Below, piece by piece: positions 8,874-55,595 of a DNA stretch of 64,000 bases (the stretch's first letter is position 1; each line of letters opens with the position of its first letter). The DNA is from Dehalococcoidia bacterium (lineage in GTDB: Bacteria; Chloroflexota; Dehalococcoidia; Lucifugimonadales; Australimonadaceae): positions 234,441 to 298,440 of the forward strand of contig CBDCQO010000012.1 of the NCBI GenBank assembly GCA_965220655.1, given 5' to 3'. The position numbers and the translations under genes are program-made. Under the pieces are notes generated by a model. That model did not search any database and had not been told where the DNA came from. It saw only the letters and a list, made by a program, of their open reading frames with translations.

Positions 8874-9911
8874 ATGCCGGGAACTCTCCACGAACAAGCG
8901 TTAGACACTCTCCAAAAGCGCATTGAAGGTGCGTTGGGGAAGGAACTGATTGCCCAGGTCAACTGTAAGGAGTACCACGAGACGCACTCTTTCGACCTGG
9001 TGCGCGATGTGGCGAGCGTGAGGCGGAACCTCACCCTGCCGGGGTGTCGACCGGACTTGGTACTCCTCAACGAAGAGGGAGAGGTACTGTCCCTCGTTGA
9101 GGTTGTTGTCTCGCACGCTCCGGAGCGAAATGTCCACCGCTATGCGATTGAGCATGGACTACAGATTGTTGAGTTCCACCTGCCGCCGCCTCAGGAGACG
9201 GACTACTGGGGCCGAAAGACCCGCAAAACTTCGGACGAGGCGGTTCTAATCAAGCGCGCCTTGGAGAACTTTCGGTCAGGCCCGCTGCTGGTGGACGACC
9301 ACAACTTGCTGTGTCAGCGTCCTCGGTGTGATTCCAACCATCCCCTGCCACTTCGGACAGTGCATGTTCAGGTAAAGGATTGCTGGAAGTGTGATAAGGC
9401 CTTGAAGGTAGCCGTGGGGATCAAGGACGAGGAGCATTTGTACCCAGACGATTTCACTCCTGACGAACGAGAGTTTGCACAGCAGAATGGAGTAATCCTT
9501 CAGACGAGGTTCAGTGCTACGGCACGACAGCGCTATCTGGCCAACGTGTGCGGGGAATGCGACCAGATACAAGGGCAGTTCTACCTCTTCATGGATCCAT
9601 ACCACGACGCGTATAGGTACGGGGTGGTTGAGCGCAAGGAGTACGGGCCTTGCGATGAGTGCGCTAAGAGATACTGTCAGATTCCTGACCACGGGGAGTA
9701 CATAGACCACGAAGACCGAGGCTGCCCCGTATGTCGCTATTTGGCGGAGTCGGTGATGTGCCATCATCGCCAAGATCGAGAGTGCTTCTATCCGGACACT
9801 TGCCAGGAGCAAGGTTGCTACTTCCAACGCCGAGAGGCATCCCAGCGTACAGCAGCCCTTGAGTACGAACAGGCGCGCCGAGCGGAAGAAGCACGTCGAC
9901 ATGAACAGTAG
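8874..9911 (+). CDS. Hypothetical protein: CoiA-like/PD-(D/E)xK-like N-domain + multi-zinc-ribbon C-half, on a low-GC island
   Basis: ATG at 8874 (the track ORF starts at TTG 8859). G+C is 30/60 at 9361..9420 versus 40/60 at 8701..8760. RPDLVLL...SLVEVVVSH fits a D...E(x3)S nuclease core. Cys pairs include CQRPRC, CWKC, CGEC, CDEC, CPVC and more. Charged C-terminal tail. Confidence 0.7.
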   Translation: MPGTLHEQALDTLQKRIEGALGKELIAQVNCKEYHETHSFDLVRDVASVRRNLTLPGCRPDLVLLNEEGEVLSLVEVVVSHAPERNVHRYAIEHGLQIVEFHLPPPQETDYWGRKTRKTSDEAVLIKRALENFRSGPLLVDDHNLLCQRPRCDSNHPLPLRTVHVQVKDCWKCDKALKVAVGIKDEEHLYPDDFTPDEREFAQQNGVILQTRFSATARQRYLANVCGECDQIQGQFYLFMDPYHDAYRYGVVERKEYGPCDECAKRYCQIPDHGEYIDHEDRGCPVCRYLAESVMCHHRQDRECFYPDTCQEQGCYFQRREASQRTAALEYEQARRAEEARRHEQ

Positions 9912-10016
9912 AGAACAGCAAGATAGAGAATGGGCAGAGTTCAATGAGTGGCTCAAAGCGAGTAGGAAAGACCCTGATGAGCGGGCATAGCCAAGAACGG
10001 CACGAGGGTTAGCGCC

Positions 10017-12165: not shown

Positions 12166-13254
12166 GTGACCACCACGGACCACATGCAGCGGGCTATCGA
12201 ACTCGCCCGCGAGGCGGTTGGAAGCACCAGCCCCAACCCGCCCGTTGGCGCGGTGCTCGTGCGCGACGGGCGCGTCGTCGGTGAGGGACGCACCCAACCG
12301 CCCGGTGGTCCCCATGCCGAGGCGGAGGCGCTCCGCATGGCAGGAGATGCCGCTCGCGGCGCCGACCTCTACGTCACGCTCGAGCCGTGCGCCCACTATG
12401 GCCGGACGCCCCCCTGCGCCGACGCTCTCGCCGAGGCGGGCGTTGCATCGGTGCGTATCGCCGTGATGGACCCCGCCCCGCACACCGCTGGCCGGGGCGT
12501 TGAACGCCTGCGCGAGGCGGGCATCCCCGTCACCGTCGACGACGGCCCGCCGGAGGCACGGCGGCTCGTGGAAGCCTTCGCGAAGCACGTCACCACCGGG
12601 TTGCCGTTCGTCGTCGCCAAGTTCGCCATGAGTCTGGACGGCAGGATAGCCGCCCGCTCCGGCGACTCCCGCTGGATATCGAACGAGACCTCGCGGCGGG
12701 AGGCGCATCGCCTGCGCGCCGAAGCCGACGCCGTCATGGTCGGCATCGGCACGGCGCTGGCGGACGACCCCCTCCTCACCGTACGCGACGCTCCGCTGCC
12801 TGCTCGTGGACAGCCGCTCCGCGTCGTCGTGGACAGTACAGGACGTCTCCCCGCGAGCGCCGCCATGCTCACTGCAGAAGGCACGACGCTCGTTGCGGTC
12901 ACTTCGTCGGAAGCGGCGCGAACCATTGAGGCGATTGGAGCCGAGACCATGGTGGCTCCCGGCGCGGACGGCCGTGTCGACCTGTCGCAACTGCTCGCCG
13001 GACTCGGCGCGCGCGACGTGACGTCGCTCCTCGTGGAAGGCGGCGCGGCGCTCCATGGTGCGTTCTTCGCAAGCGGACTCGTCGACAAGGTCGTCGCGTT
13101 CGTCGCGCCCGTCGTCATCGGCGGCGACGGCGTGCCCGGCCCGGTCGGCGGGGCAGGCGCCGAGCGCATGGCCGACGCGCTGCGCCTCCGCGATGTAACG
13201 TACACGGAGTTGGACGGCGATATGATGGTCGTCGGCTACCCCGTTCGGGAGTGA
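12166..13254 (+). CDS. ribD: Bifunctional riboflavin biosynthesis deaminase/reductase
   Basis: GTG at 12166. Deaminase zinc motif HAEAEAL...LEPCAHYGRTPPC plus a C-terminal reductase domain (KFAMSLDGRIA). Confidence 0.92.
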   Translation: MTTTDHMQRAIELAREAVGSTSPNPPVGAVLVRDGRVVGEGRTQPPGGPHAEAEALRMAGDAARGADLYVTLEPCAHYGRTPPCADALAEAGVASVRIAVMDPAPHTAGRGVERLREAGIPVTVDDGPPEARRLVEAFAKHVTTGLPFVVAKFAMSLDGRIAARSGDSRWISNETSRREAHRLRAEADAVMVGIGTALADDPLLTVRDAPLPARGQPLRVVVDSTGRLPASAAMLTAEGTTLVAVTSSEAARTIEAIGAETMVAPGADGRVDLSQLLAGLGARDVTSLLVEGGAALHGAFFASGLVDKVVAFVAPVVIGGDGVPGPVGGAGAERMADALRLRDVTYTELDGDMMVVGYPVRE

Positions 13255-13262
13255 GAGAGCGG

Positions 13263-13856
13263 ATGTTCACGGGCATCGTCGAAGAGGTTGGGGAGGTCGT
13301 GGAGGTCGCGCCGCACCGGCTGCGTATCGCGGGCGGCTCGGTCATGGACGCGCTCGCCGTGAGCGACTCCATCGCCGTCAACGGCGTCTGCCTCACCGTG
13401 ACGGAGCGCACGGACAGCGAGTTCGCCGTCGACGTCGTCGAGGAGACGCTCTCGCGCACCAACCTCGGCGACCTCGCGCCCGGTGGCATCGTCAATCTGG
13501 AGCGAGCGCTCACTCCCTCGTCGCGGATGGGCGGCCATGTCGTGCAGGGGCACGTGGACGGTACGGGGGAGGTGGTGTCGTTCGGCGGGACGCCGGAAGC
13601 GCGCGTGCTGCGCGTCGACCTCTCGCCGGAGTTGGGGCGCTACGTGGTCGAGAAGGGCTTCATCGCCTTGGACGGCATAAGCCTCACCGTGGCCTCGCAG
13701 GAAGGGGCCGGGTTCTCGGTCGCCGTGATACCGTATACGATGCAGCACACCGTGTTGAGGGTGAGAAACCCCGGCGACCGCGTTAACATTGAGGTTGATA
13801 TCCTCGCGAAGTATGTAGAGCGTCTCACGGCCTCCCAGGCGCTCGGCGGGAGATGA
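13263..13856 (+). CDS. ribE: Riboflavin synthase (alpha chain)
   Basis: ATG at 13263 gives the canonical N-terminus [12 protein letters not shown]. Two lumazine-binding repeats. Follows the ribD stop (13252..13254). Confidence 0.9.
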
Positions 13857-13860
13857 TTGC

Positions 13861-15079
13861 ATGCCGGTCATCAGTGTTGAACAGGCGATAGAGGACTTCC
13901 GCACCGGCAAACTCGTCATCATCGTGGACGACGAGGACCGGGAGAACGAGGGGGACTTCGCCATCGCCGCCACGTGGGTCACGCCCCGAGGCCATCAACC
14001 TCATGGCGACCCACGGACGCGGGCTCATCTGCGCACCGATGACCGGCGACCGCCTCCGCGAGCTCGACCTCGACATGATGGTCGCGAACAACACCTCCAA
14101 GCACACCACCGCCTTCACCGTCTCCGTGGACATCGACAACGGCGGTACGGGTATCTCCGTGCACGACCGCGCTGCCACCGTGAAGGCGCTCATCGAACCC
14201 GGCACGAAGCCGTCCGACCTCGCCCGCCCCGGCCATATCTTCCCGCTTCGCGCACAGCCGGGCGGCGTCCTCGTCCGGGCGGGCCAGACCGAGGCGAGCG
14301 TCGACCTCGCCCGGATGGCCGGACTGCCTGCGGGCGCGGTCGTCTGCGAGATCATGAACGCTGACGGGACGATGGCCCGCATGCCGCAGTTGGAGGAAGT
14401 CTCCAGGGAGCTCGGCATCGACATCGTCACCATCGCCGACATCATCGCCTATCGCCTCGAGCATGAGCGCCTCGTCGAGCGCGTTGCCGAGGCCAGGCTC
14501 CCGACCCAGTACGGCACGGCCCGCGCCTTCGCCTACCGCTCCTCTGTCGACTCCGCGGAGCACGTCGCGCTCGTGTTCGGCAACGTCCGCACCAAGGAGC
14601 CCGTCCTCGTTCGCGTGCACAGCGAGTGCCTCACCGGCGACGTGTTCGGCAGCCTGCGGTGCGACTGCGGTGTGCAGCGCGAGATGGCGATAAAGGCCAT
14701 CGCCGAAGCGGGCCGGGGCGTCTTCCTCTACATGCGCCAGGAAGGGCGCGGCATCGGCCTGCACAACAAGATCAAGGCCTATGCGCTGCAGGACAACGGG
14801 GCCGACACCGTGGAAGCGAACCGCCAGCTCGGCTTTCCGCCGGACCTCCGCCACTACGGCGTCGGCGCGCAGATCCTCGTGGACCTCGGCGTCCGGAACA
14901 TGCGGCTTATGACCAACAACCCCAAGAAGGTCGTTGGTCTGGAGAGCTACGGCCTCTCCATCGAGGAGCGCGTGCCCATCGTCGTGGAGGCCAACGAGGA
15001 GAACGCGTTCTATCTGCAGACCAAGCAGCAGCTCCTCGGCCACCTCCTCGACCCGCACAACGCCGAATCGGCGGAGTGA
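13861..15079 (+). pseudogene. ribBA: ribBA (DHBP synthase / GTP cyclohydrolase II) with an apparent +1 frameshift; may be a sequencing error
   Basis: Frame 1 (13861..13986) encodes the DHBP-synthase N-terminus ([23 protein letters not shown]). Frame 2 from 13988 continues [19 protein letters not shown] through the GCH-II domain (CDCG, RQEGRGIGL). Joining the two requires dropping one C of the C4 run at 13984..13987. Confidence 0.85.
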
Positions 15080-24765: not shown

Positions 24766-25143
24766 ATGACTGACCTCCTCCTCGTCGGTATGGGCGGCTT
24801 CATCGGCGCGGCGTCGCGTTACGGCGTCATCCTCGGCGTATCCCGCCTGCTCGGCCAGCCGACCTTCCCGTGGGGAGTGCTCGCCGTCAACGTCCTCGGC
24901 TCCCTGCTCATCGGCGTGCTCGCGGGCCTCGCCGAGACGCGCAACCTCTTCGGGCCGGGCGCCCGTCTCTTCCTCTTCGTCGGCGTGCTCGGCGGGTTCA
25001 CCACCTTCTCCGCCATAACCAACGACACCCTTGCGCTCCTGCGCAGCGCCGCATACCTCTCCGCTGCCGCGAACGTCCTCCTCACCGTGGCCCTCGGCCT
25101 CGCCGCCGTCGCTGTAGGCTACGCCGCCGCCCGCGCCCTCTAG
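24766..25143 (+). CDS. crcB: Fluoride ion channel CrcB/FluC
   Basis: Track ORF of 125 aa with 4 hydrophobic helices. Pattern GGFIGAASRY...NVLGSLLIG...GGFTTFS. Confidence 0.9.
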   Translation: MTDLLLVGMGGFIGAASRYGVILGVSRLLGQPTFPWGVLAVNVLGSLLIGVLAGLAETRNLFGPGARLFLFVGVLGGFTTFSAITNDTLALLRSAAYLSAAANVLLTVALGLAAVAVGYAAARAL

Positions 25144-25194: not shown

Positions 25195-25232
25195 CTCCCC
25201 TTTCCCTCCGGGAGAGGGCTGGAGGTGAGGGT
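25195..25232 (+). repeat. Dispersed repeat, family C copy 2
   Basis: ctcccctttccctccgggagagggctggaggtgagggt, directly following the family B copy. Confidence 0.7.
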
Positions 25233-25263
25233 TGCCATGCTGTTTCTCTGACACACGCCCGTT

Positions 25264-25283
25264 GCGCGGACAACGCGCTTTTT
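25264..25283 (+). terminator. Weak terminator-like hairpin + T5
   Basis: gcgcg-gacaa-cgcgc followed by ttttt. The stem is only 5 bp. Confidence 0.3.
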
Positions 25284-25531
25284 CCTACGATGGCTGCATG
25301 ACCCACCTAACCCACTGCCGCGCCCGAACGGCCCCATGCCTCGTCGCTCCCGCAGCGGACCGTGATGAGTCAGGATGCAACACGATGAAACACCCTCCCC
25401 GCCCGCAGAAAGTGTGAATCGATGAAATCTTGTTGCCTTGTTCACAGGAAGCAGGCCGTGGCCTTGGAAACACCCCTGGACAAGGAGATCAAGGCACTCA
25501 TATTGCAGGCCCCGTTTACTCCTGAGACGTT

Positions 25532-25572
25532 GAACAAGATTCCAGGAATCGCGGCCCGTTGGAATCTTGTTC
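25532..25572. repeat. 12-bp perfect inverted repeat with 17-nt spacer
   Basis: gaacaagattcc (25532..25543) / ggaatcttgttc (25561..25572). A 9-nt partial direct copy, aatcttgtt, lies at 25426..25434. Confidence 0.7.
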
Positions 25573-25589
25573 GCTCCCGCGCTCTGGCA

Positions 25590-25631
25590 CTCCCTCTCCC
25601 GATGAGCGGGAGAAGGGCCAGAGGTGCGGGT
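25590..25631 (+). repeat. Dispersed repeat, family C copy 3
   Basis: ctccctctcccgatgagcgggagaagggccagaggtgcgggt. Confidence 0.65.
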
Positions 25632-25662
25632 TGGAGGAGGCCGGGCGTGACGCTCCCCGCGC

Positions 25663-25735: not shown

Positions 25736-26848
25736 ATGGGACGCGTAGTAGACGTAGACACGCACATCGCCGAACCGCCGGAGATGTGGGATTTCCTGGA
25801 CCCGGACTGGCACAAGCGTCGGCCCGTCGTCGTGCAGGTGCCCGACGACACCCTCTATGGCCGTGTGGACCACATGTGGCTCATCGACGGCCAGATCTAT
25901 CCTCGTCCGGCAGGTCGAGGGGGCAACTTCCTCGTCACTCCAACCGCGCAGGCCAACGTGCGTGACCGCGTTGACAGGAAGGCGCGCGAGTTGCTCGACC
26001 TCCCGATGCGCTTCGAGGACATGCAGGCCACGAACGTGGACACGCAGGTCGTCTACCCCACACTCTTCCTCGCCTACCTCACCCACGACGCCGCCTACGA
26101 GGTCGAGTTGTGCAAGGCGTACAACCGCTTCCTCGCCGATGTCTGGGCGAAGGCGGAAGACCGCATCCGCTACGTCGTCATTCCCCCGCTGCGCAACATC
26201 GACGCTTCCATCAGTGAGCTTCGCTTCGGCAAGGAGCACGGTGCGTGCGGCGTCTTCTTCCGGGGCATCGAGGGCGACAAGACCTTGGACGACCCCTACT
26301 TCTTCCCGGTCTACGAGGAGGCCCAGTCGCTCGGCCTGCCCATCTGCATCCACCAGGGACAGGGCGCGCCTGCGCTCAACTACCTGATCGACGTCAGCCG
26401 CAGCCACACCTTCACCCACGGACGCATCCCCCCTGTCGTCGCCTTCCGCAACCTCGTCTCGAACAAGGTGCCGGAGCTCTTCCCTGACCTGCGGTGGGGC
26501 TTCATCGAGACCGGCGCTACCTGGGTCCCGTTCGCCATGTACCAGCTGCGCGGCACGCTCCGCGCCGACCGGGATTTCTGGGGCCCCCGCCTCTTCGATG
26601 AGTACAACATGTGGGTCTCCTACGAGGTCGAGGAAGACCTGCCCTACCTGATGCAGTACGTCGGCGAGGACCACCTCGTCGTCGGCACCGACTATGGGCA
26701 TCACACTCCCGGGACGACCGATCGCCTCGCCGCCGACCCGTCGGCGCAGGTGCACTGCGTCAACCAGATGCGCTCACGGGACGACATCTCCTCGGCAACC
26801 GCGGAGAAGATCCTGACGGACAACGCCACGGCGCTGTACGGCGTGTAA
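25736..26848 (+). CDS. Amidohydrolase-2 (ACMSD-like metal-dependent hydrolase) family protein
   Basis: Track ORF of 370 aa. N-terminal VVDVDTHI metal-binding pattern, VGTDYGH near the C-terminus. Confidence 0.75.
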   Translation: MGRVVDVDTHIAEPPEMWDFLDPDWHKRRPVVVQVPDDTLYGRVDHMWLIDGQIYPRPAGRGGNFLVTPTAQANVRDRVDRKARELLDLPMRFEDMQATNVDTQVVYPTLFLAYLTHDAAYEVELCKAYNRFLADVWAKAEDRIRYVVIPPLRNIDASISELRFGKEHGACGVFFRGIEGDKTLDDPYFFPVYEEAQSLGLPICIHQGQGAPALNYLIDVSRSHTFTHGRIPPVVAFRNLVSNKVPELFPDLRWGFIETGATWVPFAMYQLRGTLRADRDFWGPRLFDEYNMWVSYEVEEDLPYLMQYVGEDHLVVGTDYGHHTPGTTDRLAADPSAQVHCVNQMRSRDDISSATAEKILTDNATALYGV

Positions 26849-43537: not shown

Positions 43538-43792
43538 TTACTCGGCGGAGGCGGCGTTGAGCCGCTTGGTGAGGCGGGACTTGCTCCGCGCGGCGGCGTT
43601 GCGGTGGACGATGCCCTTGGAGACGGCGCGGTCGAGCCTGCTGACCGCCGTGAGGACGCTGGCGCCTGCCGCTTCGCTGTTGGTGTTGAGCGCTCGGACG
43701 GCCTTCTTGACCGCCGTGCGGGTGCTGGAGCGGACGCGCCGGTTGACGATGCGGCGGCGCTCCTGGACTCGTGCTGCTTTCTTCGCTGGCAT
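43538..43792 (-). CDS. rpsT: 30S ribosomal protein S20
   Basis: Track ORF of 84 aa. Basic, with the pattern KKAARVQERRRIVNRRVRS...IVHRNAAARSKSRL. SD GGAG. Confidence 0.92.
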   Translation of the reverse strand: MPAKKAARVQERRRIVNRRVRSSTRTAVKKAVRALNTNSEAAGASVLTAVSRLDRAVSKGIVHRNAAARSKSRLTKRLNAASAE

Positions 43793-43883
43793 TGATGCTC
43801 CGTGGGACCTGTTCTTGTCGCTGACGGCCTATTATCGCTCACCGGGGCCTCGTTTGGCCAGAGGCGAAGTGGTTGCCGGACTC

Positions 43884-44111
43884 GACCAAGGCGCTCAACC
43901 GGCATCGAATTCTGATCCCCTTGGTCTGAGATTACGAGTAAAGCCAAGGCCTAATCTGATCCCCTTGGTCGCCTTGGTCGGAGGCTTCCGCCAGGCCGTG
44001 GCCTGCTTCCCGCGACCAAGAGACCAAGGCGTTCATCGATTTCAAAGTTCTGCGTTACGGCCATAGACTCCGTTGATGGCTGAAGCCATGGGCTATAAAC
44101 GCAGTCTATGG
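43884..44111. other. Structured, repeat-bearing non-coding region (function unknown)
   Basis: 16-nt direct repeat tctgatccccttggtc (43911..43926, 43955..43970). Pairings: gaccaagg (43884) with ccttggtc (43919); cgccttggtc (43970..43979) with gaccaaggcg (44022..44031); ccatagact (44061) with agtctatgg (44103). No plausible ORF. Confidence 0.6.
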
Positions 44112-44187
44112 GTGCTGCCAGCGCGACGGTCATGTCACCAGCGTACGCGGAGGCGGGGCGTTCGCGAAAGGGGCGCGTGTCACATCC

Positions 44188-44742
44188 TCAATCTGCTGGC
44201 ACCTGCAGCGTGCCGTCATAGCCGACGAGGAGTTGCCCGAAGGGGGTTTCAATGCGCACGGAGACGTCCATCGCACCGGGGACGCTCGCTGAGCGGCGTT
44301 CCGTGCCCCACGTGTGGATCGAGAGCCAGCGCGGGATGGGCCAGCGGCGTCCGAGGGCGCGCAGCAGCATGCGGTCCGACCAGTGGGTGAGCGACTCGCT
44401 GTCCGAGGTGACGGTCATGGGGAAGTCCAGCGAGCCGTAACGTTCAATCAGCAGGCCGTCCTCGGCCCACTGCTCGGTGGGGAAGCGCCAGTCGCCGATG
44501 CGCCGGTCCCAGTGCTCCTGCCTGCTCTCACGGCGCACGTGCAATTCCACCGCCACGCGCCCCTCAGTTCGAGGCATCCGGAGCGCCCACCGCACGAGTC
44601 CGGCCCCGACGAAGCGTCCGAGCGTCACGTCCATCCAACCGCTGGCGGCGAACTGCGTGTCCGTTCCGTGCACCTGCTTGAGCACGTCCGGCAAGCCGTG
44701 CCAGGCGTCGCCGAGGAGGCGGTGGTAGAGGGCGGGGGTCAT
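44188..44742 (-). CDS. DUF4166-like protein
   Basis: Track ORF of 184 aa. The N-terminus LYHRLLGDAWHGLPDVLKQVH matches the DUF4166 start as I recall it. No neighbouring saccharopine-dehydrogenase-like partner. Confidence 0.6.
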   Translation of the reverse strand: MTPALYHRLLGDAWHGLPDVLKQVHGTDTQFAASGWMDVTLGRFVGAGLVRWALRMPRTEGRVAVELHVRRESRQEHWDRRIGDWRFPTEQWAEDGLLIERYGSLDFPMTVTSDSESLTHWSDRMLLRALGRRWPIPRWLSIHTWGTERRSASVPGAMDVSVRIETPFGQLLVGYDGTLQVPAD

Positions 44743-44773
44743 GGGGCAATGGTAGCGGATGGGGGTAAGGTTA

Positions 44774-44806
44774 CCCGAGAGATGCCTCGGCTACGCTCGG
44801 CATGAC
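44774..44806 (-). repeat. Dispersed repeat, family A copy 3 (short form, reverse orientation)
   Basis: The reverse complement reads gtcATGCCgagcgtagccgaGGCATctctcggg. Confidence 0.7.
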
Positions 44807-44853
44807 AGTCCGCCACCACAGCCCCTCGCCCGGCTCTCTGCGCCCGCGTCTGG

Positions 44854-44873
44854 ATTCCCGCCTGCGCGGGAAT
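44854..44873. repeat. Short palindromic repeat related to family B
   Basis: attcccgc-ctgc-gcgggaat, a perfect 8-bp stem with the same architecture as family B but a covarying stem sequence. Confidence 0.6.
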
Positions 44874-44884
44874 GACGAAATTCC

Positions 44885-55339: not shown

Positions 55340-55595
55340 AAAAAAAGACCCGCCCCATGAAGGGACGGGCCGTTAACCCGCGGTACCACCCTACTTCCCC
55401 GGCTCACGAAGGGCCGAGGCAGCTTTGCCTGCGCGGTAACGGCGCGCTCCGCTGGCCCTACTGTTGCTGTTCAGGCCAGCCGCTCGGGGACGAGTTCAGG
55501 GGGGCTTGTCCATCGCCAGTCTCGCACCAGAACGACCGGCTCTCTGAGATGCGCTTGCCCCGTACTACTTCCCTTCTCAGCGGAACGGATGTAAT
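55340..55595 (-). promoter_or_regulatory. T-box riboswitch leader (Leu, specifier CUC) with intrinsic terminator
   Basis: The minus strand reads UGAGA...AGUAGUA...AGAGAG...GGUGCGAG...GAA-CUC-G (codon 55494..55492), then the F-box CCGUUA and the T-box GUAGGGUGGUACCGCGG (55379..55395). The terminator is GGCCCGUCCC-UUCAU-GGGGCGGGUC followed by U7 (55340..55370). Confidence 0.85.

What the first reader, a model, noticed from the sequence alone, without database searches (positions are those of the whole stretch)
43840..44187. About 350 bp of ORF-free, highly self-complementary sequence between the DUF4166 gene and rpsT
Seen: there is no plausible ORF. A 16-nt direct repeat tctgatccccttggtc occurs at 43911 and 43955. 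The 8-mer gaccaagg/ccttggtc occurs seven times in alternating orientation, allowing one 8-bp hairpin (43884/43919) and one long ~15-bp interrupted hairpin (43963..43979 with 44014..44029). That long hairpin encloses the palindrome aggccgtggcct. The perfect 10-bp pairing cgccttggtc (43970..43979) with gaccaaggcg (44022..44031) is an alternative, overlapping register of the same arms, so it is not additive. Further along, ccatagact (44061) pairs with agtctatgg (44103) around an inner atggc-tgaa-gccat hairpin. The mutually exclusive alternative ctgcgtt (44050) with aacgcag (44098) also exists. A plausible rpsT promoter (minus strand GATAAT at 43836..43831) lies downstream of all this, so the region is not simply the rpsT leader. 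Inference: this may be an unannotated structured RNA, a cluster of protein-binding sites for the CCTTGGTC motif, or nested MITE remnants.
Basis: seen in the sequence. Interest (0 to 1): 0.6.

Follow-up and report, generated by a model that had tools for sequence, protein, structure and literature searches.

The report
Gene-less remnant of a helicase cassette
The hairpin-rich spacer upstream of rpsT is a leftover of a small gene cassette whose helicase-like gene has been deleted. What remains is its promoter-like head and an array of six repeated 14-bp sites, most likely the protein's binding sites or replication origin rather than an rpsT regulator.

Summary
CCTTGGTC occurs 5 times exactly, plus one one-mismatch copy, within 146 bp (chance about 1.4 in all 64 kb). 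The 16-nt direct repeat and every hairpin named are present. The long hairpin folds better than all 200 shuffles.

The spacer is one copy of a roughly 330-nt non-coding element from uncultured Dehalococcoidia. A second copy lies at window 25247-25583. Nothing matches it in Rfam, phages, plasmids or IMG/VR.

In a related genome (L126) the orthologue of the second copy is complete. There the conserved head abuts the start codon of a 581-aa AAA_25 (RecA/DnaB-like) ATPase gene. The hairpin region begins at that gene's stop codon. Both window copies are therefore internal-deletion derivatives.

The hairpins consist of six 14-bp sites (nnnCAAGrnnnCcA) with fixed spacing and orientation. Sites that cannot pair with each other are as alike as pairing partners, and far more alike than sites of other elements (0/2000 permutations). 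My best reading is an iteron-type binding-site array or origin, as found just downstream of rep in SaPI islands. This part is inference. A structured RNA is not excluded. The element is independent of rpsT.

The parts
44111..44185 (-). Block A, the conserved head (ATGTGACACGCGCCCCTTTCGCGAACGCCCC..CGCGTACGCTGGTGACATGACCGTC..GCAGCAC). It is homologous to the 5' flank and start codon of the 581-aa AAA_25 gene of L126.
   Evidence: Conserved from this exact point in all relatives whatever gene lies upstream. Aligns with L126 12335-12400 and with window copy 2 (A6).
44140..44145 (-). -10-like hexamer TACGCT, 6 nt upstream of the conserved ATG. This is a leaderless layout. TACNNT sits at the same distance in every copy.
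   Evidence: Sequence. It was not flagged by the consensus promoter scan, so its promoter role is inferred.
44131..44133 (-). Remnant start codon (the ATG of CATGACC) of the deleted helicase-like ORF.
   Evidence: The same ATG opens the 581-aa ORF in L126 and L129. In the window the downstream frame is not conserved.
44050..44114 (-). Block B version 1: the hairpin ccatagact...agtctatgg around atggc-tgaa-gccat. It is a lineage-specific replacement of the ORF's 3' remnant (version 2 in L001, L003-L005, L052 and copy 2).
   Evidence: (I1). Found only at this locus in window, L002, L006, L007 and L010.
43957..44035 (-). Long interrupted hairpin H2. It holds sites 1-2 (44035-44012) and sites 3-4 (43980-43957) in opposite orientation around a sequence-conserved centre, CGCGGGAAGCAGGCCACGGCCTGGCGGAAGCC (44011-43981).
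   Evidence: z = -4.2. Ten of 18 outer pairs show changes on both sides. Six-site table.
43927..43956 (-). Linker, the most A+T-rich stretch of the spacer. It contains the conserved TTTACTCGTAAT (43942..43931).
43884..43926 (-). Hairpin H3. It holds site 5 (43926-43913, a direct repeat of site 4) and site 6 (43897-43884, inverted).
   Evidence: D1, I5; z = -2.6. L052 has a deletion between sites 4 and 5.
25247..25583 (+). Second, paralogous gene-less copy of the element, between crcB and an amidohydrolase gene. Here the site core is CTTGTTC/GAACAAG.
   Evidence: nhmmer E = 5e-68; covariance model, 148 bits. Its orthologue in L126/L127 carries the complete gene.
43831..43860 (-). rpsT promoter (TGGCCA-18-GATAAT). 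It is adjacent to the element but not part of it.
   Evidence: In L121-L125 it stays with rpsT while the element lies about 350 nt further upstream, beyond a 70-aa ORF. L049 and L051 lack the element but keep the -10 box.

Best explanation
The spacer is a gene-less internal-deletion derivative of a cassette of about 2 kb that survives complete in related Dehalococcoidia genomes.

The complete cassette has three parts:
- a conserved promoter-like head, whose -10-like TACNNT lies 6 nt before the start codon;
- a 581-aa gene for a RecA/DnaB-like (AAA_25) P-loop ATPase, with a Cys/His-rich N-terminus and an HTH-like C-terminus;
- starting at its stop codon, an array of about 190 bp holding six 14-bp sites (nnnCAAGrnnnCcA). 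The layout is two sites, a conserved centre, two inverted sites, an A+T-rich linker, one more site and one inverted site.

In the window the gene is gone. Only its ATG remains here, and in other copies also its last ~60 nt. The head and the site array remain.

I read the array as the cognate binding-site (iteron) array, and probably the origin, of the helicase-like protein. On this reading the hairpins follow from sites placed in inverted orientation. The lineage-specific site sequence reflects the specificity of the protein. Whole site modules have been exchanged between lineages.

Without its protein in cis, the window copy is either inert or depends on a protein supplied from elsewhere.

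Shown: the homology and deletion relationship, the six-site architecture, the concerted site sequences, and independence from rpsT. Inferred: protein binding, origin function, and promoter activity of the head.

The confidence of 0.5 is for the whole statement. I put about 0.85 on the deletion-derivative relationship and about 0.45 on the iteron/origin function.
For: (1) Block A of both window copies aligns with the 5' flank and start codon of the L126 ORF. Block B version 2 aligns with the ORF's last ~60 nt and its stop codon.

(2) The L126 element lies at the orthologous position of window copy 2, upstream of the same amidohydrolase gene.

(3) The protein matches AAA_25 at 1e-13, with weak DnaB_C, KaiC and phage DnaB-like helicase hits.

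(4) In L126 the octamer TTCAAGAT occurs 5 times within 145 nt starting at the stop codon (chance 0.16 per 20 kb). It has the same six-site spacing and orientation as CCTTGGTC in the window.

(5) Within an element, same-orientation sites, which cannot pair, are as alike as pairing partners: 0.72 against 0.76 overall, and 0.60 against 0.67 at variable positions. Sites of different elements reach only 0.42. No permutation out of 2000 reaches the observed value.

(6) The spacer is A+T-richer than its surroundings, GC 0.55 against 0.65-0.70.

(7) The site module has a different history from its flanks. L001 against the window is 0.96 identical in the flanks but 0.48/0.43 in the arms. L001 against L121 is 0.91 in the flanks and 0.70/0.80 in the arms.

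(8) There is a decay series. Truncated alleles of 413 and 308 aa exist, and a palindromic repeat sits inside the 'complete' ORF.

(9) SaPI islands provide a precedent: the origin lies immediately downstream of rep, holds 6-12 iterons in both orientations around an A+T-rich centre, and is bound by the C-terminal domain of Rep (PMC9371898).
Against: No binding or replication experiment exists.

Only one sequence type of the protein was recovered, so co-variation between its C-terminal domain and the site sequence could not be tested.

The protein is annotated only through its P-loop domain. The HTH (Pfam HTH_8, E = 0.24) and the zinc-finger-like N-terminus are not significant. No integrase or other mobility gene lies nearby.

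The centre of the inverted site pairs is G+C-rich, not A+T-rich.

Gene-less copies keep well-paired hairpins with compensatory changes, which a dead relic need not do.

Block A is no better conserved than third codon positions of lexA, so selection on the remnant is not demonstrated.

Concerted site evolution could also come from gene conversion or template switching between repeats.
Confidence: 0.5

Rival explanations
1. The element is a structured RNA. The retained head acts as a promoter and drives a non-coding transcript of about 250 nt on the rpsT-sense strand. In complete cassettes this would be the 3' UTR of the helicase-like mRNA. Hairpins H2 and H3 would act at the RNA level, for example as a 3' stabiliser, a U-tract-less terminator, or a regulatory or antisense-target RNA.
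For: Covariation on the covariance-model alignment is clear: 93.6% of cells are paired against 86.5% in shuffles. Sixteen pairs change on both sides against 9.6 +/- 1.5 (0/500), and slid controls give 8 or fewer.

Loops and linker are more conserved than the stems.

Both window copies point the same way as their flanking genes.

H2 folds at z = -4.2.

There is a slight excess of G-U over A-C mismatches on the sense strand, about 12 against 8 events. L005 has five, all G-U.

A -10-like TACNNT lies at a fixed distance from the ATG.
Against: There is no Rfam match even at E < 10.

The G-U/A-C bias is not significant, and several lineages fold better on the other strand.

RNA pairing does not require H2 and H3 to share one sequence, yet non-pairable sites are as alike as partners.

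In the complete L126 copy the octamers are exact while H2 pairs poorly (z = -2.0). In window copy 2, H2 has z = -0.5.

The linker and the H2-centre motif (two tandem hairpin-plus-linker units in L039) lie on the opposite strand relative to Block A in L039, and the linker does so in L013.

No terminator-like site is present.
Confidence: 0.25
2. The element is selfish mosaic repetitive DNA, like REP/BIME, BOX or a MITE, with no function for host or parent. The hairpins would be maintained only by template switching or gene conversion between inverted and direct repeats.
For: At least two copies occur per genome.

The build is modular, with two unalignable versions of block B, opposite-strand and duplicated modules in L013 and L039, and a repeat-mediated deletion in L052.

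The same spacers are crowded with other short palindromic repeats.

Conservation of Block A is about neutral.
Against: Copy number is low: 2 in 64 kb, and none extra in roughly 400 kb of related loci.

The motif is not dispersed.

There are no terminal inverted repeats, no target duplications, and no conserved GTAG or CGTC tag (PMC3733652).

The parent encodes a helicase-like ATPase, not a transposase.

The six-site layout and spacing are conserved across loci and lineages.
Confidence: 0.15
3. The spacer is an rpsT regulatory region: a long leader, an upstream activating region, or an operator array for S20 autoregulation or for LexA.
For: It lies directly upstream of rpsT in the window and in about ten relatives. 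lexA is the next gene downstream.
Against: It lies upstream of the only promoter-like site.

In L121-L125 a 70-aa ORF with its own TTGACA promoter separates it from the rpsT promoter.

L049 and L051 have rpsT without it.

A paralogue sits in front of an unrelated gene.

No GAAC-N4-GTTC LexA box is present (sequence).
Confidence: 0.03

Closest known systems
Rep-ori modules of staphylococcal pathogenicity islands (SaPI/PICI): self-loading initiator-helicases with an iteron origin (PMC9371898)
   Same: The array starts immediately downstream of the ATPase/helicase-like ORF. It holds six short repeated sites, with at least two on each side pointing in opposite directions. Site sequence is specific to each element. 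The region is A+T-richer than its surroundings. The protein has a putative DNA-binding C-terminus.
   Different: The host phylum differs. No sequence similarity was detected beyond the Walker A region, and no SaPI Rep was among the PDB sequence matches. Sites are 14 bp with a 9-nt tandem period rather than 5-6 nt. The centre between the inverted pairs is G+C-rich. No integrase, primase or packaging genes lie nearby. The window copies have lost the gene.
Phage P4 alpha protein (primase-helicase) with octamer type I iterons in ori and crr (from my own knowledge; not checked against a paper here)
   Same: A single multidomain protein carries a C-terminal DNA-binding domain. An octamer core is repeated in direct and inverted orientation in a region of 100-200 bp. 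A second cis region holds the same iterons.
   Different: No primase catalytic domain was detected. No sequence similarity appeared in the phage collection beyond the P-loop. The layout is chromosomal and relic-like.
MITEs and other non-autonomous deletion derivatives of mobile elements
   Same: The window copies keep only the cis-acting ends of a larger coding unit. Two independent deletions have different junctions.
   Different: There are no terminal inverted repeats and no target-site duplication. The parent gene is not a transposase. There are only two copies in 64 kb.
REP/BIME and pneumococcal BOX mosaic repeats (PMC3733652 for REPs; BOX from my own knowledge)
   Same: They are intergenic, modular, palindromic, of variable module content, and lie downstream of genes.
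   Different: REPs are 20-40 bp, carry a GTAG or CGTC tag and occur in tens to thousands of copies. This is a roughly 330-nt composite with a fixed six-site layout, low copy number and a coding parent.

Membership tests
Any Rfam 15 RNA family | Covariance-model score at or above the family gathering threshold | tested here: not met
   The best matches have E of about 1-3 and lie far below threshold, for both copies. The whole window at gathering threshold yields only a T-box at 55358-55587.
Iteron-type origin next to an initiator-helicase gene (SaPI/P4-like) | The array lies immediately downstream of, or adjacent to, the initiator gene | tested here: met
   In L126 the first site overlaps the stop codon of the 581-aa AAA_25 ORF. 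In the window the gene is deleted but its start and stop contexts remain.
Iteron-type origin next to an initiator-helicase gene (SaPI/P4-like) | Six or more short repeats, with at least two on each side in opposite orientation | tested here: met
   Six 14-bp sites occur in the order a a - centre - a' a' - linker - a' - a. Spacing is conserved between the window (8, 42, 9, 44, 35) and L126.
Iteron-type origin next to an initiator-helicase gene (SaPI/P4-like) | Repeat sequence is element-specific and shared by all repeats of one element | tested here: met
   At variable positions, within-element identity of non-pairable sites is 0.60 against 0.42 between elements, with 0/2000 permutations reaching it.
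Iteron-type origin next to an initiator-helicase gene (SaPI/P4-like) | A+T-rich unwinding region between the iteron sets | tested here: inconclusive
   The spacer has GC 0.55 against 0.65-0.70 in the flanks. By my count from the sequence, the linker 43927-43956 is about 40% G+C. The centre of H2, however, is G+C-rich.
Iteron-type origin next to an initiator-helicase gene (SaPI/P4-like) | The initiator binds the repeats through a dedicated DNA-binding domain, and the array supports replication | not testable with these tools
   There is only a weak HTH_8-like match (E = 0.24).
MITE | Terminal inverted repeats and target-site duplication; parent encodes a transposase | tested here: not met
   No inverted repeat joins the two ends of the complete unit. 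The flanks show no duplication. The parent gene is AAA_25.
REP/BIME (RAYT-associated) | Palindromes of 20-40 bp with a GTAG or CGTC tag, in high dispersed copy number | tested here: not met
   The motif occurs twice elsewhere in 64 kb, against a chance value of 1.4. The linker reads CGTAA, CGTAG or CCTGA and is not conserved as a tag. Criteria are from PMC3733652.
Intrinsic terminator | G+C-rich hairpin followed by a T tract | tested here: not met
   No terminator-like site on either strand of 43700-44300.
Ribosomal-protein (S20) leader or operator | Lies within the rpsT transcript and is linked to rpsT wherever it occurs | tested here: not met
   It lies upstream of the promoter, is separated from it by a gene in L121-L125, and has a paralogue at an unrelated gene.

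The most novel reading that the evidence does not exclude
The gene-less copies may not be dead relics. They could be maintained 'origin-only' or decoy elements, a replicon analogue of a MITE. Their six-site array would be recognised in trans by a helicase-like initiator encoded elsewhere, or would titrate it. The retained leaderless promoter would make a structured non-coding RNA. The site 'specificity module' would be under diversifying selection and would be swapped between lineages.
Probability: 0.15. Interest if true: 0.7.

Novelty: new variant of a known kind. Interest (0 to 1): 0.45.

Why it matters
Mobile and replicating elements of the uncultured Dehalococcoidia are almost unknown. This element family and its 581-aa ATPase have no match in Rfam or NCBIfam, and only P-loop (Walker A) matches in PHROGs, plasmid, phage and solved-structure collections (none in IMG/VR).

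If the six-site array is the protein's origin, it defines a new initiator-origin pair. That pair could seed a genetic tool, a replicon, for a phylum that has none.

It would also explain a class of hairpin-rich 'orphan' spacers in these genomes. For annotation, it warns that such a spacer upstream of a ribosomal-protein gene need be neither a leader nor a riboswitch.

Tried and rejected
- **Rfam.** I searched both copies permissively and the whole window at gathering threshold. Nothing matched.
- **JGI metagenomes.** Two DNA-pattern scans, one for Block A and one for the rpsT promoter, both gave 0 hits. The clade is absent there.
- **IMG/VR.** A scan with the H2-centre motif gave 63 hits. All were chance seed matches by nhmmer. 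A protein-based viral scan found nothing.
- **Plasmid and phage BLAST.** The element gave no match. The protein matched only at its Walker A region.
- **Coding hypothesis.** Rejected, because the ORF from the conserved ATG is not conserved in length or frame.
- **Strand assignment.** G-U against A-C counts and sense/antisense folding energies were inconclusive.
- **Promoters in Block A.** I inspected Block A by eye for sigma-54, ECF and LexA-box motifs and rejected them. The standard scan found no sigma-70 consensus promoter there.
- **attC-like R'/R'' cores.** Checked by eye and not conserved.
- **Orthologues of copy 2.** The window's CrcB and DUF4166 proteins are not on record. The best amidohydrolase homologue, P0096, is non-syntenic. 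L131 lacks the locus.
- **'CGCCTCTGGCC' as the element's 3' tail.** Rejected. It belongs to the rpsT promoter, and in copy 2 it belongs to a neighbouring repeat.

Full report
**Observation**

CCTTGGTC/GACCAAGG occurs five times exactly within 43884-44029. One one-mismatch copy lies at 44014-44021. Only two copies occur in the remaining 63.8 kb. Chance for the whole window is 1.38 +/- 1.2.

The 16-nt direct repeat and every hairpin named are present.

The spacer as a whole is not unusually foldable, with z = -1.4 on either strand. The long hairpin is: -46.2 kcal/mol, z = -4.2, 0/200 shuffles. The short one gives z = -2.6.

Rfam has nothing at E < 1.

**Source and relatives**

S20 of the window is identical to that of several metagenome-assembled contigs. 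The genome collection names them as uncultured Dehalococcoidia. Over the rpsT region these relatives are 83-94% identical to the window in DNA.

In ten or more of them the same spacer of about 320 nt is present. Similarity starts abruptly at (A/G)TGTGACACGCGCC, whatever lies upstream. The upstream neighbours include DUF4166 with or without a 140-aa ORF, GmrSD, DUF6615, other genes, or nothing.

Two relatives (L049, L051) have rpsT without the element.

In L121-L125 a 70-aa ORF with its own TTGACA promoter lies between the element and the rpsT promoter. The promoter (TGGCCA-18-GATAAT) therefore belongs to rpsT. The element is not an rpsT leader or operator.

**Anatomy (rpsT-sense, the window's minus strand)**

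- Block A (44185-44111) is conserved in sequence.
- Block B comes in two unalignable versions. The window has the ccatagact...agtctatgg hairpin.
- Hairpin H2 (44035-43957) has a sequence-conserved centre, GGAAGCAGGCCRYGGCC.
- An A+T-rich linker carries TTTACTCGTAAT.
- Hairpin H3 spans 43926-43884.

No ORF is conserved. From the one conserved ATG the frame runs 13-96 aa in different relatives.

**A second copy and family searches**

The H2-centre motif hit a second place in the window. A paralogous copy with the same architecture lies at 25247-25583 (+), between crcB and an amidohydrolase gene. Its site core is CTTGTTC.

A profile HMM and a covariance model of H2-linker-H3 (R1) found no further copies. 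They were run over the window, roughly 400 kb of related loci and 0.6 Mb of viral loci. Plasmid, phage and JGI metagenome collections have nothing.

**The complete form**

A CrcB homologue led to contigs L126/L127. There the orthologue of copy 2 sits in front of the same amidohydrolase, but it is complete.

- Block A (L126, about 12335-12385) is followed directly by a 581-aa ORF (12386-14131). Its start codon is the conserved ATG of CATGAC.
- The ORF's last ~60 nt are block B version 2.
- Its stop codon overlaps the first site of H2.

The two window copies are therefore independent internal-deletion derivatives. The rpsT copy keeps about 10 nt after the ATG. Copy 2 keeps about 60 nt.

The protein matches Pfam AAA_25 (1e-13), with weak DnaB_C, KaiC and phage DnaB-like helicase hits. 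It has no NCBIfam match. In the PDB it matches only the RecA P-loop. It has no PADLOC match of note, and only Walker A matches in plasmids and phages (none in IMG/VR). NCBI calls it 'AAA family ATPase'.

Its Cys/His-rich N-terminus and its HTH-like C-terminus (LGISRTSLHRA) are my reading of the sequence. They are not significant matches.

The gene itself is decaying. Cluster members are truncated to 413 and 308 aa. A palindromic repeat that occurs four more times in the neighbouring spacer sits in frame inside the ORF.

A -10-like TACNNT lies exactly 6 nt before the ATG in all copies. This suggests a leaderless promoter. That is inference, because the consensus scan does not flag it.

**The six sites**

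Written in one orientation, every element has six 14-mers with the family consensus nnnCAAGrnnnCcA. Their order and spacing are conserved: two sites, centre, two inverted sites, linker, one site, one inverted site.

The variable positions are lineage-specific:
- GACCAAGGsGnTCA in the window;
- kGCCAAGAGTGCCA in L001 and L121;
- GTTCAAGATnyyCA in L126, where TTCAAGAT occurs 5 times in 145 nt against 0.16 expected in 20 kb.

On the covariance-model alignment the helices show real covariation. Cells are 93.6% paired against 86.5% in shuffles. Sixteen pairs change on both sides against 9.6 +/- 1.5 (0/500). Slid controls give 8 or fewer.

The constraint, however, is not only on pairing. Sites of the same orientation cannot pair with each other. 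Yet they are as alike as pairing partners: 0.72 against 0.76 overall, and 0.60 against 0.67 at variable positions. They are far more alike than sites of other elements (0.42; 0/2000 permutations).

Mismatch types give no clear strand. There are about 12 G-U against 8 A-C events on the sense strand. Folding energies favour different strands in different lineages.

In L039, the linker and the H2-centre motif (two tandem hairpin-plus-linker units) lie on the strand opposite to Block A; in L013 the linker does. L052 has lost the stretch between the direct repeats formed by sites 4 and 5.

The site module also has a different history from its flanks. L001 is 0.96 identical to the window in rpsT+lexA but only 0.48/0.43 in the arms. 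It shares its variant with the more distant L121: flanks 0.91, arms 0.70/0.80.

Block A is about as conserved as lexA third codon positions. Purifying selection on the remnant is therefore not demonstrated.

**Interpretation**

The facts to explain are these:
- six element-specific sites, in both orientations;
- an array that starts at the stop codon of a RecA/DnaB-like ATPase gene;
- a region A+T-richer than the genome.

The best fit is a binding-site (iteron) array, probably an origin, for that protein. SaPI islands show this layout. Their origin lies immediately downstream of rep, holds 6-12 iterons with at least two on each side in opposite orientation, and is bound by Rep's C-terminal domain (PMC9371898). 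Phage P4 alpha with its octamer iterons is similar, from my own knowledge.

I put about 0.85 on the deletion-derivative relationship. I put about 0.45 on the iteron/origin function.

The rivals are:
- a structured RNA, either a 3' UTR or a promoter-driven non-coding RNA (0.25);
- selfish mosaic repeat DNA kept palindromic by template switching (0.15);
- an rpsT regulator (0.03).

It is not a member of any Rfam family, nor of the REP/BIME or MITE classes. Their defining features were tested and not met.

**Novelty**

The element and its protein are unmatched in the libraries searched. The kind of thing is known: an initiator-helicase with an adjacent iteron array, and gene-less derivatives of it. 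I rate it a new variant of a known kind. Interest is moderate, because the window copy has lost its gene and no function is shown.

Noticed in passing
window 25247-25583 (+): A second, paralogous gene-less copy of the element lies between crcB (24766-25143) and an Amidohydro_2 gene (25736-26848). Its site core is CTTGTTC instead of CCTTGGTC.
   Followed up: yes
window 55358-55587 (-): A T-box leader scores above the Rfam gathering threshold (101.7 bits, E = 2.8e-21). It is the only Rfam hit in the window.
   Followed up: no
window 25195-25240 and 25590-25640; also L012, L013, L049, L052, L126 14350-14385: A short palindromic repeat family (CCCTCTCCC-nnnn-GGGAGAGGG followed by GGTGAGGGTTG) flanks copy 2 on both sides. 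It recurs in the rpsT spacers of relatives.
   Followed up: partly
window 44852-44872 (-); L126 10542, 10816, 11934, 12188, 13745: A REP-like palindrome, TTCCCG-n6-CGGGAATCC(AG), translates as 'VIP..GIQ' when it falls inside an ORF. Five copies occur in 20 kb of L126, one of them in frame inside the 581-aa ATPase gene. One copy lies between DUF4166 and TauE in the window.
   Followed up: partly
relatives L001-L010, L052, L121-L125: between the second TauE gene and Block A (window about 44190-44880): This is a variable-gene hotspot. Different relatives carry DUF4166 alone, DUF4166 plus a 140-144-aa ORF, GmrSD (type IV restriction) plus these, DUF6615, other small ORFs, or only repeats. The crcB-amidohydrolase gap is similarly variable in L126 (MCP-like_PDC_1 gene, repeats) and L131 (collagen-like gene, a tRNA).
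   Followed up: partly
L121-L125 about 9708-9920; L051 76-330: A conserved ORF of 70-84 aa (coiled-coil plus a hydrophobic tail, no Pfam match) has its own TTGACA promoter. It lies directly upstream of the rpsT promoter in some relatives and is absent from the window.
   Followed up: no
L052 1788-1937: This copy of the element has lost the linker and the 5' arm of H3, a deletion between the direct repeats formed by sites 4 and 5.
   Followed up: yes
L013 2700-2990; L039 2466-2990: These are divergent versions at the rpsT locus. L013 keeps Block A but its repeated motif is ATGAGCC/GGCTCAT. L039 has two tandem hairpin-plus-linker units. In both, CACTCGTAA lies on the strand opposite to Block A.
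   Followed up: partly
L123 about 9379-9480, compared with L122 and L124: Block B version 1 is almost wholly deleted in L123, between its own CCCATAG...CCTATGG arms. This is another repeat-mediated deletion.
   Followed up: no
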